A DNA stretch of 64,000 nucleotides from an uncultured archaeon (GTDB lineage: Archaea > Micrarchaeota > Micrarchaeia > Micrarchaeales > CABMGC01). The position numbers and the translations under genes were made by a program. Position 1 is the first letter of the stretch. Each line of letters begins with the position of its first letter. Location of the stretch: NCBI GenBank assembly GCA_963752955.1, contig CAVWAD010000007.1, forward strand, positions 64,386 to 128,385, given 5' to 3'. This document shows, one piece after another, positions 4,424-7,243 of this stretch. The notes below the pieces were generated by a model. It was not told the DNA's origin, made no database searches, and saw only the letters and a program-made list of their open reading frames with translations.

Positions 4424-7243
4424 ATGACCGCTTCAGACTATTGCAAAAAATCCAGGGCCCAGTCCGCGATGGAGTACCTGACGACGTACGGCTGGTCGAT
4501 ACTCATCATCGCGGTGGTGATCGGCGCCCTCTTCGAGCTCAGGGTCTTCTCCCCGACGCTGCCCGCTTCGTGCGCCTCCGCGGAGCCATACCTCTGTACA
4601 AACCCGACCCTGACCATCAACGGAATCCTGGCGGCGCGGATAGGGGAGCTGGGCAGCGCGATAACGGTGACCAACCTCAACTGCTCGGGCACCTCCGCCG
4701 TGCCCAGCGCCTGGACGACGCCGGCGCCAGTGCCCCTCGTCTCCGGTGCAGTCACGATCTTGAACTTCTCGTGCCCCGTGCCGCTCGGCACGGTCGGCGC
4801 GTCATTCTCCGGGAAGCTGTGGATAAGGTACAGCACCGCGACGCAGAGCGGCCTGGTGGCGCAGGTCGGCACCGTCACCGCGACGGCGACAGGCGCAGGG
4901 CCGCAGCCGATCGCGACCGCGGGGCAGGTGCAGGACTACCTCACGACGGCCGTCGCGGGGGGCGTCGGGGGCACCGTCACCCCGGCCAGCGGGACCCACC
5001 CGGACGGAAATACCGTGACCGTCACCGCGATGCCCGATACCTACTACGATTTCGCGGGCTGGTCCTGCAGCGCGAGCGTGCCATGCCCTTCCGGGACGGC
5101 GCAGAGCTCGTTCAGTTTCCAGATAACTGACACCGCGTCCGTCACCGCGAACTTCGCGCCGCAGTCTTCGTTCCAGTTCTCCGCGGTCGCCGCGCCGGCA
5201 GCGGACGGCACCGTGGCGTGCAGCGGCCAGGGGATGTCCTGCTCCACAGGTTACCCGGCCGGGGCGCAGGAGACCGTGACCGCCACGGCGGACCCTGGCT
5301 ACTCCCTGACGGGCTGGTCCTGCACCGGAACCGGAGTCACCTGTCCCGGATCCGATCCCGCCCTGACTGTCACAATACCAATTGGAGGGGCGACTGTCAC
5401 CGCGAACTTCGCGCCGATATCCTACTCCTTCTCAGCGAACGCGCTCCCAGACGCTGACGGCTCCGTGGCGTGCGCCGGCGGAGGAGCGACGTCGTGCTCT
5501 GTGAACTCCTATCAGTACGGAAACGTGATCACTGCGACCGCCACGGCGGACCCTGGCTATTCCTTCTCAAGCTGGACATGCAGCCCAAGCAGCGCGTGCT
5601 CCACTACGTCGGCCTCTCCCACGTCGGTCACAATACCGGTCGGGGGAGTCACGGTCTCCGCGAACTTCGCGATACAGTCCTACTCCTTCTCAGCGAACGC
5701 GCTCCCCGTTGCAGGTGGTTCGGTGTCGTGCGCCGGCGGAGGCGTAGTCTCGTGCGACGCGGCGGACTACCAGTACGGGAACACCATCACGGTGACCGCG
5801 ACGAACAGCGTAGGTTATTCGTTCTCTAGCTGGACATGCAGCCCAAGCAGCGCGTGCAACACTCTGACAACCTCCCCGATGATCGCCACTGTACCCGTCA
5901 GCTTAGTCACGGTGACCGCGAACTTCGCGATACAGTCGTACTCGTTCTCCGCGAACGCGCTCCCGACTGCGGGAGGCGCCGTGGCCTGCACCGGAGGAGG
6001 AGCCACGTCCTGCTCTTCGGCGAACTACCAGTACGGTAACACGATCACTGTGACCGCGACCGCAAACACCGGCTACGCCTTCTCGGGTTGGACCTGCAGC
6101 CCCAGCAGCGCGTGCAACACTCTGGTTGCATCTCCGGTGGCAGTCACTGTCCCCTCCGGGGGAGTCACGGTCTCCGCGAACTTCGCGATACAGTCCTACT
6201 CCTTCTCAGCGAGCGCCGGTTCCGGCGGCAGCATCGTCTGCACGCCGTCGTGCTCCGGGACCTACACTTACGGAACGTCGTTCAGCGCTACCGCGACGCC
6301 CAACGCGGGCTACGCTGTGTCGTGGTCCTGCTCCGGGAGCAGCTGCTCCGGGACGACGAGCGTTGCGGTATCGGGCACCTTGACGGCTGGCACGACCGTC
6401 ACAGCCGCCTTCACCAACACCTGCGTTTCTGGCGGCGGTGTGACTTGCACCGCATCGCTAAACGGCGCGAGTACGGTTGATACGTTTACTTACAGCTCTT
6501 CTCCAGGCTCGACGACGTGGTCGACTCCGGCTGGCGTCACTTCCGTTGAGTATCTTGTTGTTGCTGGTGGCGGAAGCAGTGCAAAGGACTATAGTTCCGG
6601 CGGAGGCGGAGGCGGGTTTTTAGCTGCAACCGGGTTTCCTGTTTCCGGCACATTGACCGTAACTGTTGGCGCTGGTGGTGCTGTTGTTTCATCTGGTAGT
6701 GGAAACAATGGGGGTAATAGCGCATTTTCAAGTATCACTGCCACTGGCGGTGGTGGTGGTGTTAGTCTCGGTGTTGGGGTAAATGGGGGGTGTGGTAGCG
6801 GCGGCGGGCCAAAAACATCGGCCGGGACAAATGCCGGTGGTCAGGCGTCTCCATCAGGTCAAGGATATGCTGGTGGAGCTGGAACATACATATCAACAAA
6901 CAGATATCCTACCGGCGGAGGCGGAGGATGTGGGGGCGTAGGAGGCGACGGCTCAACCAGTACTGCGATATCTGGCAGTGGTGGTTCAGGAAGATCCTCC
7001 TCTATAACTGGAACCCAAGTTGTGTATTGTGGCGGGGGCGGCGGAGGGTGCTATGCCTCTCAGTCGTGCTCCGGAGGGACAGGCACCGACGGGGGAGGTA
7101 ATGGAGCATCCACGCTCGGTTCCGCGGGTGGAGCGGGTGCAGCCAACACAGGTAGTGGTGGAGGGGGTAATGCCGGTGGCGGGCAGTCCTCCGGTGGCGC
7201 AGGCGGTTCTGGCGTCGTCATCATAAGCTTTACGACGACCTAG
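4424..7243 (+). CDS. large surface protein with archaeal class III (type IV pilin-like) signal peptide, six tandem beta-rich domains and a glycine-rich C-terminal domain
   Basis: 939 aa. The N-terminus KKSRAQSAMEYLTTYGWSILIIAVVIGALF is the archaeal prepilin-type motif. Six repeats of about 86 aa (..YSFSANALP..GGSV.C.GGG..SC....YQYGNTITVTAT...GYSFSSWTCSPSSAC...VTV.ANFAIQ) resemble InlB B-repeat-type domains (Y.F.GW). The C-terminus VEYLVVAGGG...GGSGVVIISF is glycine-rich. Confidence 0.8.
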   Translation: MTASDYCKKSRAQSAMEYLTTYGWSILIIAVVIGALFELRVFSPTLPASCASAEPYLCTNPTLTINGILAARIGELGSAITVTNLNCSGTSAVPSAWTTPAPVPLVSGAVTILNFSCPVPLGTVGASFSGKLWIRYSTATQSGLVAQVGTVTATATGAGPQPIATAGQVQDYLTTAVAGGVGGTVTPASGTHPDGNTVTVTAMPDTYYDFAGWSCSASVPCPSGTAQSSFSFQITDTASVTANFAPQSSFQFSAVAAPAADGTVACSGQGMSCSTGYPAGAQETVTATADPGYSLTGWSCTGTGVTCPGSDPALTVTIPIGGATVTANFAPISYSFSANALPDADGSVACAGGGATSCSVNSYQYGNVITATATADPGYSFSSWTCSPSSACSTTSASPTSVTIPVGGVTVSANFAIQSYSFSANALPVAGGSVSCAGGGVVSCDAADYQYGNTITVTATNSVGYSFSSWTCSPSSACNTLTTSPMIATVPVSLVTVTANFAIQSYSFSANALPTAGGAVACTGGGATSCSSANYQYGNTITVTATANTGYAFSGWTCSPSSACNTLVASPVAVTVPSGGVTVSANFAIQSYSFSASAGSGGSIVCTPSCSGTYTYGTSFSATATPNAGYAVSWSCSGSSCSGTTSVAVSGTLTAGTTVTAAFTNTCVSGGGVTCTASLNGASTVDTFTYSSSPGSTTWSTPAGVTSVEYLVVAGGGSSAKDYSSGGGGGGFLAATGFPVSGTLTVTVGAGGAVVSSGSGNNGGNSAFSSITATGGGGGVSLGVGVNGGCGSGGGPKTSAGTNAGGQASPSGQGYAGGAGTYISTNRYPTGGGGGCGGVGGDGSTSTAISGSGGSGRSSSITGTQVVYCGGGGGGCYASQSCSGGTGTDGGGNGASTLGSAGGAGAANTGSGGGGNAGGGQSSGGAGGSGVVIISFTTT
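4925..6421 (+). repeat. six tandem domain-encoding repeats (period about 258 bp) inside the pilin-like adhesin gene
   Basis: The unit CCGCGAACTTCGCGATACAGTCCTACTCCTTCTCAGCGAACGCGCTCCC recurs at about 5401, 5659, 5917 and 6175, with a diverged copy near 5140. The three central copies are most alike at DNA level. Confidence 0.85.

What the first reader, a model, noticed from the sequence alone, without database searches (positions are those of the whole stretch)
4424..7243. 939-aa protein with a type IV pilin-like signal peptide carrying six tandem domains and a glycine-rich head
Archaeal class III signal peptides (here ..RAQSAMEYLTTYGWSILIIAVVIGALF) normally lead short pilins. Here the pilin-like N-terminus is fused to about 900 aa.
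- First a unique domain.
- Then six tandem about 86-aa Cys-containing domains of the Y.F.GW (InlB B-repeat-like) type.
- Then a C-terminal domain of the glycine-rich type I recall from phage fibre and viral proteins (VEYLVVAGGG....GGSGVVIISF).

This looks like a pilus-tip or pilus-integrated adhesin. The three central repeats are near-identical at DNA level (258-bp period), so copy number could vary by recombination.
Basis: partly seen in the sequence, partly recalled or inferred. Interest (0 to 1): 0.6.

Follow-up and report, generated by a model that had tools for sequence, protein, structure and literature searches.

The report
Pilin fused to phage-fibre head
This gene, probably from a tiny symbiotic archaeon (Micrarchaeota-like), encodes a complete pilus subunit extended by a six-domain stalk and a glycine-rich head of the kind phage tail fibres use to recognise hosts, so it is most likely a pilus-borne adhesin, and such extended pilins turn out to be common in this lineage.

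Summary
The ORF (4424-7243, +, 939 aa) is real and has the reported anatomy. It has an EppA-type class III signal (KKSRA|QSAMEYL), six InlB-B-repeat domains (Pfam PF18998, E 6e-56) and a C-terminal Gly_rich_2 domain (PF21722, E 4e-19).

Three additions:
- Residues 1-157 are a whole pilin module. It aligns end to end with free-standing 150-205-aa pilin-like proteins. The family has about 8,400 cluster representatives, almost all loci fetched are from Micrarchaeota, and it has no Pfam model.
- The head models confidently (pLDDT 90) as the fold of cyanophage Pam3 fibre gp24, and matches 180 predicted viral proteins.
- The same architecture recurs with 0, 4, 6, 22 and 26 repeats. In relatives these genes sit beside a type IV pilus assembly ATPase and a plain pilin.

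Two corrections:
- The central repeats are 74-78% identical in DNA, not near-identical. A second assembly of the same strain has the same copy number.
- Long cargo on this pilin module is the rule: 91 of the best 150 relatives exceed 240 aa.

Verdict: an archaeal modular type IV pilin, probably a tip adhesin. It is a new variant of a known kind. About 10% of the closest head homologues are bacterial prepilins.

The parts
4388..4396 (+). TATA-box-like element TTTAAAATA, 28-36 nt upstream of the ATG. It implies a very short or absent 5' leader.
   Evidence: Read directly from the sequence. Function is inferred, not tested.
4424..4459 (+). Leader peptide, aa 1-12 (MTASDYCKKSRA). Predicted prepilin-peptidase cleavage is after Ala12 (Arg at -2, Ala at -1).
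   Evidence: The rules (G/A/S at -1, charged residue at -2, +1 Gln and +5 Glu for EppA substrates, e.g. EpdA 'RAQI') are from PMC4371748. Cleavage itself was not tested.
4460..4537 (+). Pilin alpha-1 helix, aa 13-38 (QSAMEYLTTYGWSILIIAVVIGALFE), with Gln at +1 and Glu at +5.
   Evidence: In alignment A1, E17, L19, T21, Y22 and W24 are invariant and Q13, S14, A15 and M16 are nearly invariant. The AF2 model has a helix at 15-38.
4538..4894 (+). Pilin globular domain, aa 39-157. It is an eight-strand beta sandwich with conserved Cys50/Cys58 and Cys117 and the C-terminal motif GASFSGKLWIRYS.
   Evidence: It aligns end to end with free-standing 158-205-aa proteins. AF2 gives pLDDT 80. A profile search finds 8,403 relatives.
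4895..4939 (+). Linker, aa 158-172 (TGAGPQPIATAGQVQDY region).
   Evidence: pLDDT is below 50 for residues 159-172. Free-standing pilins end here.
4940..5164 (+). InlB-B-repeat (Flg_new_2) domain 1, aa 173-247.
5165..5419 (+). InlB-B-repeat domain 2, aa 248-332.
5420..5677 (+). InlB-B-repeat domain 3, aa 333-418.
5678..5935 (+). InlB-B-repeat domain 4, aa 419-504.
5936..6193 (+). InlB-B-repeat domain 5, aa 505-590.
6194..6421 (+). InlB-B-repeat domain 6, aa 591-666.
6422..7243 (+). Head, aa 667-939, plus the stop codon. It starts with a Cys-bracketed lead-in (CVSGGGVTC), then a beta sandwich, then a glycine-rich lattice domain (Gly_rich_2), and ends in GGSGVVIISF.
   Evidence: Pfam PF21722. 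AF2 gives pLDDT 89.7 and pTM 0.89. Foldseek hits Pam3 fibre 7YPX_A at E 7.4e-7 and Bxb1 tail tip 9D93 at E 2e-5. 180 predicted viral structures match at E<=1e-3.
60074..61649 (+). Candidate pilus assembly ATPase (T2SSE/FlaI-like) in the same window. The reading frame is broken by one extra base near 60605-60617. Its association with the pilin gene is inferred only.
   Evidence: Pfam PF00437. tblastn against relatives and three-frame translation show the shift.
62352..63419 (+). Candidate pilus platform protein (T2SSF/TadC-like).
   Evidence: Pfam PF00482, E 1.3e-14.
63451..64000 (+). Second T2SSF-domain gene. It runs off the end of the window.
   Evidence: Pfam PF00482, E 3.8e-9.

Best explanation
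The gene encodes a modular (cargo-bearing) archaeal type IV pilin that works as a pilus-borne adhesin. The proposed steps are below, each marked shown or inferred.

1. The precursor is inserted by Sec. A prepilin peptidase of the EppA/PibD type cuts after Ala12, leaving Gln13 at the N-terminus. The motif is shown; the cleavage is inferred.
2. The hydrophobic alpha-1 helix plus the beta-sandwich pilin module (aa 13-157) dock into a type IV filament. A T2SSE ATPase and T2SSF platform build that filament. The complete pilin module is shown. Assembly is inferred from the gene neighbourhood in relatives.
3. About 780 aa of cargo hang from a flexible 15-residue linker, so the subunit most likely sits at the tip or primes the filament, as CofB, TcpB and GspK do in bacteria. 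This is inferred.
4. Six head-to-tail InlB-B-repeat domains form a stalk. My rough estimate of its length is about 20 nm. Homologues carry 0 to 26 units, so reach is tuned by repeat number. The variation is shown; the stalk role is inferred from the use of this domain in fibrillar adhesins.
5. The C-terminal beta-sandwich plus glycine-rich lattice head is the same fold as phage tail-fibre tips. It binds the target through the variable, non-glycine loops between the conserved glycine motifs. The fold and the conservation pattern are shown; binding is inferred.

The organism is most likely a Micrarchaeota (DPANN) episymbiont. The likeliest target is therefore the surface of its host archaeon or the biofilm matrix. 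This last point is speculative.
For: Signal:
- R at -2, A at -1, Q at +1 and E at +5, followed by about 20 hydrophobic residues. This matches the published rules for EppA-type archaeal prepilins (PMC4371748).

Pilin module:
- It aligns over its whole length with free-standing 158-205-aa proteins that end exactly where the linker starts.
- AF2 gives a helix at 15-38 plus an eight-strand sandwich, pLDDT 80, and a disordered linker at 159-172.
- The family has 8,403 representatives, and the module is always N-terminal and complete.

Machinery link:
- In L084 the order is [pilin + (Flg_new_2 + Gly-rich) x N, 1309 aa][plain pilin, 164 aa][P0266, 2233 aa][T2SSE ATPase, 438 aa][89 aa][434 aa][P0307, 2647 aa], all on one strand.
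- In L013 a 549-aa pilin + Flg_new_2 + G-rich protein is immediately upstream of a T2SSE ATPase.
- The window's pilin module is 57-58% identical to those of P0266 and P0307.
- The window itself carries a T2SSE gene and two T2SSF genes.

Stalk:
- Six PF18998 domains.
- Homologues have 0 repeats (L007, 429 aa), 4 (P0073), 22 (P0266) and 26 (P0307).
- Flg_new is treated as a stalk domain of fibrillar adhesins (PMC9210967).

Head:
- PF21722. AF2 gives pLDDT 89.7.
- Foldseek best hits are cyanophage Pam3 fibre gp24 (E 7.4e-7) and the Bxb1 tail tip. 180 viral models match at E<=1e-3, TMq up to 0.83.
- 67 of the 97 well-conserved columns are Gly, with variable stretches between them.

Concept:
- Modular pilins that present an adhesive module are established in bacteria (PMC8179133).
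- Pili-like connections between ARMAN cells and Thermoplasmatales, and type IV pilus loci in a cultured micrarchaeon, are reported (PMC5498576).
Against: - In this window the gene sits among housekeeping genes (Lon-like, HIT, UbiA, Pelota/eRF1-like), 53 kb from the T2SSE/T2SSF genes.
- That ATPase ORF is interrupted by a 1-nt frameshift. This could be an assembly error or a pseudogene.
- The ATPase is only 27-29% identical to the ATPases that neighbour the homologues.
- No plain pilin gene and no prepilin peptidase was found in the 64 kb.
- The pilin module has no Pfam or NCBIfam hit and no sequence relative in the PDB.
- The pilin module has no significant Foldseek match to a solved pilin; the best E is 0.005, to unrelated helix-plus-sandwich proteins.
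- Glu at +5 is kept, so nothing marks the protein specifically as a tip subunit.
- No experiment on any member of this family was found.
- TM-scores to solved phage fibres are modest (0.43-0.46).
Confidence: 0.6

Rival explanations
1. It is a membrane-anchored fibrillar adhesin or short pseudopilus component. The class III signal and pilin module serve only for export and anchoring, as with the prepilin-like substrate-binding proteins of the Sulfolobus bindosome. The stalk and head project from the cell surface without being part of a long pilus.
For: - The gene stands alone among housekeeping genes, with no neighbouring pilin or machinery.
- Micrarchaeota genomes carry many paralogous pilin-module proteins with very diverse cargo: beta-propellers, Kelch, DUF2341, lectin-like and glycine-rich domains. 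This resembles a surface 'toolbox'.
- Prepilin-like proteins that are not pilus subunits are known in archaea (PMC4371748).
- Only 3 of 80 fetched loci have a T2SSE gene within 8 kb.
Against: - The whole globular pilin domain, not only the signal, is conserved with free-standing pilins.
- The closest full-architecture relatives flank a T2SSE ATPase and a plain pilin, as does L013.
- Archaeal pilin genes are often not linked to their machinery (PMC4371748).
Confidence: 0.25
2. It is an ordinary S-layer or envelope structural protein, or a secreted protease.
For: It is large, rich in Ser, Thr, Gly and Ala, has very few charged residues (K+R 11, D+E 24) and has many Cys, as surface proteins of acidophiles often do.
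Against: - There is no S-layer, protease or other enzyme family hit in Pfam or NCBIfam at E<=1.
- The domains found are a stalk repeat and a phage-fibre-type head.
- The N-terminus is a pilin module.
Confidence: 0.04
3. It is a virus-derived receptor-binding protein (a provirus tail-fibre gene), or a decoy against viruses, rather than a cellular adhesin.
For: The head is the domain most common in tailed-phage and prasinovirus proteins, including the archaeal virus HF2.
Against: - No viral genes flank it.
- G+C matches the neighbours: 0.60-0.65 over the gene region against 0.62-0.67 upstream.
- The divergent UbiA-pilin arrangement is syntenic with a Micrarchaeota genome (L043).
- The N-terminus is a cellular pilin module found in thousands of cellular proteins.
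Confidence: 0.03

Closest known systems
Modular type IV pilins of bacteria (Streptococcus sanguinis PilB with a vWA module, PilC with a lectin module; Raynaud et al. 2021, PMC8179133)
   Same: A complete N-terminal pilin module, a short linker, and a C-terminal module that is not specific to pili and is presented by the filament for adhesion. The survey reported more than 1,200 such bacterial proteins in 264 architectures.
   Different: - This one has an archaeal EppA-type signal (Q at +1) instead of the bacterial N-methyl motif (IPR012902).
- The pilin module is an unrelated sequence family with no Pfam model.
- The cargo is a six-domain stalk plus a phage-fibre head.
- At 939 aa (relatives up to 2,647 aa) it exceeds the 860-aa extreme reported there.
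- Their query was the bacterial motif IPR012902; the word 'archaea' does not occur in their main text.
Tip-located large minor pilins CofB (ETEC) and TcpB (Vibrio cholerae), and GspK of type II secretion
   Same: A pilin domain followed by a linker and beta-rich extra domains. These proteins are thought to sit at the filament tip and to prime assembly. CofB forms a trimer (as summarised in PMC8179133).
   Different: There is no sequence or detected fold relationship. Trimerisation and tip location were not tested here. Their extra domains are not InlB repeats or glycine-rich lattices.
Phage tail-fibre tips with a glycine-rich domain: cyanophage Pam3 gp24 (7YPX/7YFW), Salmonella phage S16 gp38 (6F45), mycobacteriophage Bxb1 tail tip (9D93)
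   Same: A beta sandwich leads into a lattice of glycine-rich motifs with variable distal loops. Foldseek gives E 7.4e-7 to 7YPX_A and 2e-5 to 9D93. The authors of the gp24 structure assign receptor recognition to these domains (PMC9608196).
   Different: - Here the domain is mounted on a pilin through a repeat stalk, not on a phage fibre shaft or helical bundle.
- No fibre chaperone gene lies next to it.
- The oligomeric state is unknown.
- S16 gp38 itself did not appear among the Foldseek hits.
ALK/LTK glycine-rich ligand-binding domain (PF12810; 7LRZ, 7NWZ)
   Same: The same general type of domain, a TNF-like sandwich plus a polyglycine lattice, used for ligand binding. A Micrarchaeota paralogue (L014, 428 aa) is pilin + PF12810.
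   Different: The match of this protein's head to ALK is not significant (E 0.2). Pfam assigns it to PF21722, not PF12810.
Fibrillar adhesins and 'periscope' proteins of bacteria
   Same: A stalk of tandem repeats with lineage-variable copy number projects a terminal binding domain. Flg_new is a recognised stalk domain (PMC9210967).
   Different: The anchor here is a pilin module at the N-terminus, rather than a sortase, TM or S-layer-homology anchor. The repeats are diverged (74-78% DNA identity), unlike the near-identical repeats typical of periscope proteins.
Predicted archaeal pilus adhesins with DUF2341, and large class-III-signal proteins (Makarova et al. 2016, PMC4858521); LamG proteins linked to pilus loci in Ca. 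Mancarchaeum Mia14 (PMC5498576)
   Same: Large secreted proteins with class III signals in or near archaeal type IV pilus loci, proposed to be adhesins or minor pilins. DUF2341 and Laminin_G_3 cargo also occur on this same pilin module.
   Different: Those papers do not describe a pilin + InlB-repeat + Gly_rich_2 architecture, as far as my text searches of them show. DPANN lineages were not covered in the 2016 census.

Membership tests
Archaeal type IV pilin / class III signal peptide protein | Short charged leader ending in G/A/S at -1 with a charged residue at -2 | tested here: met
   KKSR-A|Q has Arg at -2 and Ala at -1. Rule from PMC4371748.
Archaeal type IV pilin / class III signal peptide protein | Cleavage site precedes a hydrophobic helix of about 20 residues. 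For the EppA subclass, Gln at +1 and Glu at +5. | tested here: met
   QSAMEYLTTYGWSILIIAVVIGALF has Q at +1 and E at +5. These positions are invariant or nearly invariant across 11 relatives. A helix is predicted at 15-38.
Archaeal type IV pilin / class III signal peptide protein | Globular beta-rich domain following the helix, as in solved archaeal pilins | tested here: inconclusive
Archaeal type IV pilin / class III signal peptide protein | Match to a curated pilin or class III signal model | tested here: not met
   No Pfam or NCBIfam family matches the N-terminal 172 aa, or five free-standing relatives, even at E<=10. The family is simply not modelled.
Archaeal type IV pilin / class III signal peptide protein | Processing by a prepilin peptidase and polymerisation into a filament | not testable with these tools
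   This needs N-terminal sequencing or mass spectrometry of pili.
Archaeal type IV pilin / class III signal peptide protein | Assembly ATPase and platform protein in the genome, or linked to the gene | tested here: inconclusive
   The window has a T2SSE gene and two T2SSF genes, but 53 kb away, and the ATPase is frameshifted. Direct adjacency is seen only in relatives L013 and L084.
Modular pilin (sensu Raynaud et al. 2021) | Intact pilin module, linker, and an extra domain that also occurs outside pilus proteins | tested here: met
   The pilin module equals a full-length free pilin. The linker has pLDDT below 50. PF18998 and PF21722 occur widely in non-pilin proteins.
InlB B-repeat / Flg_new_2 (PF18998) | Score above the Pfam gathering threshold | tested here: met
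   186.8 bits against 23.6, six stretches.
Gly_rich_2 (PF21722) / phage-fibre glycine-rich domain | Score above the Pfam gathering threshold | tested here: met
   69.8 bits against 24.3, covering profile positions 2-225 of 226.
Gly_rich_2 (PF21722) / phage-fibre glycine-rich domain | Fold: beta sandwich plus a lattice of glycine-rich motifs, as in Pam3 gp24 | tested here: met
   The model has pLDDT 89.7. Foldseek gives E 7.4e-7 and probability 1.00 to 7YPX_A. The top viral model gives TMq 0.82, rmsd 2.8 and 41% identity.
Gly_rich_2 (PF21722) / phage-fibre glycine-rich domain | Trimeric assembly and receptor binding | not tested
   No multimer prediction or binding assay was possible.
   No such family appears at E<=1 in Pfam or NCBIfam.

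The most novel reading that the evidence does not exclude
Micrarchaeota, and perhaps ultra-small bacteria as well, recognise their host cells with a phage-type receptor-binding head carried on a type IV pilus.
- The same head module has moved between phage fibres, bacterial prepilins and archaeal prepilins. 12 of the 120 closest head homologues are bacterial FTLIELL-type prepilins, with up to 49-58% local identity and a shared CVSGGG(L/V)TC lead-in.
- It is mounted on a repeat stalk whose length (0-26 units) is tuned to the thickness of the host envelope or matrix.
- At a conserved locus (UbiA divergent from the pilin gene) different genomes carry different cargo. The pilin would then be a swappable host-range cassette, analogous to tail-fibre swapping in phages.
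Probability: 0.3. Interest if true: 0.8.

Novelty: new variant of a known kind. Interest (0 to 1): 0.55.

Why it matters
How DPANN archaea find and hold on to their hosts is largely unknown. Pili-like connections have been seen between ARMAN cells and Thermoplasmatales, but no adhesin has been identified.

This analysis gives several concrete leads:
- It defines a large, unnamed archaeal pilin family: about 8,400 cluster representatives and no Pfam model. The family routinely carries cargo.
- It singles out one sub-architecture, pilin + InlB-repeat stalk + phage-fibre head, that is linked to pilus ATPases in relatives.
- It supplies testable candidates for host recognition: the head domain, the variable loops and the stalk length.
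- It extends the 'modular pilin' concept from bacteria to archaea.
- The glycine-rich phage receptor-binding domain sits on prepilins in both domains of life. This hints at exchange of recognition modules between viruses and cellular pili.

There is also a practical caution. Database fragments of this gene, such as the 235-aa P0121, are frameshift artefacts of an error-prone assembly.

Tried and rejected
Searches that found nothing or were unavailable:
- An exact-sequence look-up of the 939-aa protein found nothing on record.
- A genome-contig scan with the full protein found no relative. The profile of the pilin module worked instead.
- PDB sequence searches gave no hit for the head. The pilin profile gave only a chance titin match at E 0.09.
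- Foldseek of the pilin model against the PDB gave no significant hit and no pilin among the hits.
- Pfam on the isolated pilin module and five free relatives found nothing, even at E<=10.
- Cluster look-ups gave no organism names for the bacterial pilin + Gly_rich_2 proteins or for the window's own proteins. I suspect the bacterial ones are Patescibacteria, but this is not shown.
- Literature searches found no paper on PF21722/Gly_rich_2 or on pilin plus glycine-rich domain. A search on the Bxb1 tail-tip protein was uninformative.

Method caveat:
- My own hmmsearch with a head profile missed several G-rich paralogues that BLAST without composition correction had reported.
- I therefore count as head-bearing only those confirmed by Pfam: L007 and P0307 by my scans and P0266 and P0073 by precomputed annotation (P0073's Gly_rich_2 hit is marked weak); L014 carries the related PF12810. 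L013, L009 and L010 are 'G-rich, unassigned'.

Ideas rejected:
- S-layer protein or protease: no family hit.
- Provirus gene: housekeeping context, matching G+C and synteny with a Micrarchaeota genome.
- Active repeat-number switching in this strain: the repeats are only 74-78% identical, and the two assemblies have identical copy number.

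
Full report
**1. The observation**

The ORF 4424..7243 (+) exists, starts at the first in-frame ATG after a stop codon and encodes 939 aa with the quoted N-terminus. A TATA-like TTTAAAATA lies at 4388-4396, 28-36 nt upstream.

Pfam finds six stretches of PF18998 (Flg_new_2, 'Divergent InlB B-repeat', E 5.8e-56). It also finds one PF21722 (Gly_rich_2, aa 693-936, E 4.4e-19). 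Both are far above their curated cut-offs, and NCBIfam TIGR02543 agrees.

I place the units at aa 173-247, 248-332, 333-418, 419-504, 505-590 and 591-666. Tandem Repeats Finder reports the 258-bp period (5396-6216, 3.2 copies) but with only 75% matches.

Units 3-5 are 74-78% identical in DNA and 71-77% in protein. The longest exact shared words are 21-37 bp. 'Near-identical' is therefore wrong.

The protein has very few charged residues (K+R 11, D+E 24) and 34 Cys, mostly 2-4 per repeat.

**2. The N-terminus is a whole pilin, not only a signal**

Searching aa 1-172 alone found free-standing proteins of 158-205 aa. One of them (P0129) is named as coming from a Ca. Marsarchaeota archaeon. These proteins align with the query from the leader to about residue 157 and end there.

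- Invariant columns: E17, L19, T21, Y22, W24, C50, C58.
- Nearly invariant columns: Q13, S14, A15, M16, C117.

The cleavage context KKSR-A|QSAME has a charged residue at -2, Ala at -1, Gln at +1 and Glu at +5. This is the pattern described for archaeal prepilins cut by EppA-type peptidases, for example Methanococcus EpdA 'RAQI' (PMC4371748).

AlphaFold2 on the 11-sequence alignment gives a helix at 15-38, an eight-strand beta sandwich (pLDDT 80) and a disordered stretch at 159-172, which I take as the linker.

The module has no Pfam or NCBIfam model and no relative in the PDB by sequence. Foldseek finds no significant match to a solved pilin, so the fold-level membership test is inconclusive.

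**3. How common is this?**

A profile of the module against 1.84 billion cluster representatives finds 8,403 proteins at E<=1e-3, 4,462 at E<=1e-10 and 480 at E<=1e-30. In the best 150 the module is always N-terminal and complete. Of these, 91 are longer than 240 aa (median 464), five are at least 800 aa, and the longest is 2,647 aa.

A scan of species-representative genomes returned 80 loci, nearly all labelled Candidatus Micrarchaeota, Micrarchaeia or Micrarchaeales. In them I found 104 ORFs with the MEYLxTYG motif. Sixty-three of these are 230 aa or shorter. The remaining 41, up to 886 aa, all match the pilin-module profile.

Pfam on a sample shows cargo of many kinds:
- Gly_rich_2 (L007, 429 aa)
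- ALK_LTK_GRD, PF12810 (L014, 428 aa)
- Flg_new_2 (L013, L022)
- NHL, YNCE or lactonase-type propellers
- Kelch
- DUF2341

Laminin_G_3 cargo also occurs.

**4. Organism**

The window is archaeal. It carries an eRF1/Pelota-like gene, DUF655, eIF2-gamma and topoisomerase VI B.

Its housekeeping proteins are 40-61% identical to genes in the Micrarchaeota loci. The divergent UbiA-pilin arrangement recurs in L043, and a Lon-like gene lies upstream of a pilin in L011. I conclude 'probably Micrarchaeota (DPANN)'. The record itself could not be named.

**5. The same architecture elsewhere, and its neighbours**

Homologues with the pilin module, InlB repeats and a Gly_rich_2 head:

| Protein | Length (aa) | Repeats |
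|---|---|---|
| P0073 | 828 | 4 |
| This window | 939 | 6 |
| P0266 | 2,233 | 22 |
| P0307 | 2,647 | 26 |

The head also sits directly on the pilin with no repeat (L007).

The window's pilin module is 57-58% identical to those of P0266 and P0307. Those two genes lie in one co-directional cluster (L084), in this order:
- a 1,309-aa pilin with alternating Flg_new_2 and Gly_rich_2 hits (precomputed Pfam annotation)
- a plain 164-aa pilin
- P0266
- a 438-aa T2SSE ATPase
- two small or unknown genes (89 and 434 aa)
- P0307

In L013 a 549-aa pilin + Flg_new_2 + G-rich protein is immediately followed by a 458-aa T2SSE ATPase. This is the best evidence that the family belongs to a type IV pilus system.

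In the window itself the neighbours are housekeeping genes. A T2SSE gene and two T2SSF genes lie at 60.1-64.0 kb. The ATPase frame is broken by one extra base near 60605-60617. It is a different subtype, 27-29% identical to the L013 and L084 ATPases. Only 3 of 80 loci have a T2SSE gene within 8 kb of the pilin.

**6. The head**

With a 48-sequence alignment AlphaFold2 gives pLDDT 89.7 and pTM 0.89 for aa 665-939. The model has strands at the start and the very end, and long non-regular glycine-rich segments between them.

Foldseek against the PDB:
- cyanophage Pam3 fibre gp24 first (7YPX_A, E 7.4e-7; 7YFW, E 6.3e-4)
- the Bxb1 tail tip next (9D93 Qa and Qb, E 2-4e-5)
- ALK and LTK glycine-rich domains follow, not significantly (E >= 0.2)

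Against predicted viral structures there are 180 matches at E<=1e-3, with TMq up to 0.83 and 30-44% identity. They include cyanophages, a Pelagibacter phage, Halorubrum phage HF2 and prasinoviruses.

The authors of the Pam3 gp24 structure describe a TNF-like sandwich and a four-layer lattice of glycine-rich motifs. They assign host-receptor recognition to these domains and propose that the variable distal ends form the binding sites (PMC9608196).

In my alignment 67 of the 97 well-conserved columns are glycine, with variable stretches between them. This is the same pattern.

**7. An unexpected relative**

Among the 120 closest head homologues, 12 start with a classical bacterial prepilin motif (FTLIELLVVIAI...; Pfam PF07963) and are 394-468 aa long. 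They share up to 49-58% local identity with this head. In three of them, the lead-in CVSGGG(L/V)TC is also shared.

One contig (L082) has two such genes in tandem. So pilin + Gly_rich_2 exists in Bacteria as well. I could not determine the bacterial taxon. Glycine richness inflates identities, so transfer between domains is a hypothesis, not a result.

**8. Mechanism**

The best-supported reading is a modular type IV pilin, as defined for bacteria by Raynaud et al. (PMC8179133). The pilin module is the carrier, the InlB-repeat array is a stalk and the glycine-rich domain is the binding head. Flg_new is used as a stalk in fibrillar adhesins (PMC9210967).

A tip or priming position is likely for steric reasons and by analogy with CofB, TcpB and GspK, but it is inferred. 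Glu at +5 is retained, which does not discriminate.

The main rival is a membrane-anchored adhesin or pseudopilus that never forms part of a long filament, as with the bindosome. It fits the isolated position of the gene and the many paralogues with different cargo.

S-layer, protease and provirus readings have essentially no support.

For a Micrarchaeota episymbiont the obvious target is the host cell. Pili-like links between ARMAN cells and wall-less Thermoplasmatales, and two pilus systems in the cultured Mia14, are on record (PMC5498576). That step is speculation.

**9. Repeat-number variation**

An independent assembly of the same strain (L001, 99.885% identical over 8.7 kb) has the same gene length and repeat number. 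Its six small indels break the gene into 235-, 382- and 221-aa ORFs and also break neighbouring genes.

The database protein P0121 (235 aa) is such an artefact. There is thus no evidence for switching within this strain. The 0-26 range is between lineages.

**10. Novelty**

The kind of protein, a modular pilin or adhesin on a type IV filament, is known. The following were not described in any paper I could find:
- the archaeal carrier family
- the InlB-stalk plus phage-fibre-head cargo
- the extreme lengths
- the occurrence of the same head on bacterial prepilins

The library searched is limited to open-access papers and preprints. I rate it a new variant of a known kind, of moderate to good interest.

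Noticed in passing
window 60074-61649 (shift near 60605-60617): The T2SSE/FlaI-like pilus ATPase gene is split over two reading frames by what looks like a single extra base. The sequence KTNITL in one frame continues as DENIIYDNAEQIGRRVGR in the next, when compared with the L081 homologue. It could be an assembly error or a real pseudogene.
   Followed up: partly
L001 4001-6822 (same strain, other assembly); protein P0121: A second public assembly of the same strain is 99.885% identical but has six small indels in 8.7 kb. These fragment this gene into 235-, 382- and 221-aa ORFs, and also fragment the Lon-like and eRF1-like neighbours. The 235-aa database protein is an artefact.
   Followed up: yes
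L084 1441-5370: A 1,309-aa protein has the same pilin module followed by alternating Flg_new_2 and Gly_rich_2 hits. This suggests a pilin carrying several heads in series. It sits next to a plain 164-aa pilin and two giant paralogues.
   Followed up: partly
L082 8001-9263 and 9680-11224; proteins P0138, P0140, P0144, P0146, P0207: Bacterial-type prepilins (FTLIELL motif, PF07963) are fused to the same Gly_rich_2 head, with two in tandem on one contig. The second also carries DUF5018. The taxon of these bacteria was not established.
   Followed up: partly
L014 7887-9170: A Micrarchaeota pilin-module protein (428 aa) has cargo that matches the ALK/LTK glycine-rich domain family PF12810 (E 1.5e-14) rather than PF21722.
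   Followed up: no
window 3435-4298 (-) and 4424 (+); L043 4753-5607 (-) and 5656 (+): The divergent UbiA-prenyltransferase / modular-pilin gene pair is conserved in another Micrarchaeota genome. There the pilin (367 aa) carries a different, unassigned cargo, which suggests cargo replacement at a fixed locus.
   Followed up: partly
window 12927-26700 (+): A MoxR-type AAA ATPase (12927-13835) is followed by a co-directional run of about 12 kb of ORFs of 180-640 aa. None has a Pfam match at E<=1e-3.
   Followed up: no
window 42994-46770 (+): The topoisomerase VI subunit B gene is interrupted by an intein. Intein_splicing and a LAGLIDADG homing-endonuclease domain lie between the ATPase and transducer parts.
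   Followed up: no
window 47946-49355 (-): A 469-aa ORF has a DDE transposase domain (PF01609), so a probable insertion sequence.
   Followed up: no
window 31114-33954 (-): A 946-aa ORF has a DnaJ domain near its C-terminus (aa 732-790) and a weak B12-binding-like match. This is an unusual combination, and no other family was found.
   Followed up: no
L007 and L059 (record DATLRT01, 'Candidatus Acidiferrales bacterium'): Contigs filed under a bacterial MAG encode archaeal EppA-type pilin-module proteins, including the 429-aa pilin + Gly_rich_2 protein. They are probably mis-binned archaeal contigs.
   Followed up: no
window 4424-7243: The protein has only 3.7% charged residues and 34 cysteines in regular pairs within the repeats. 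There are only two N-x-S/T sequons, both in the pilin module (Asn86, Asn114). This composition is typical of surface proteins of acidophiles.
   Followed up: no
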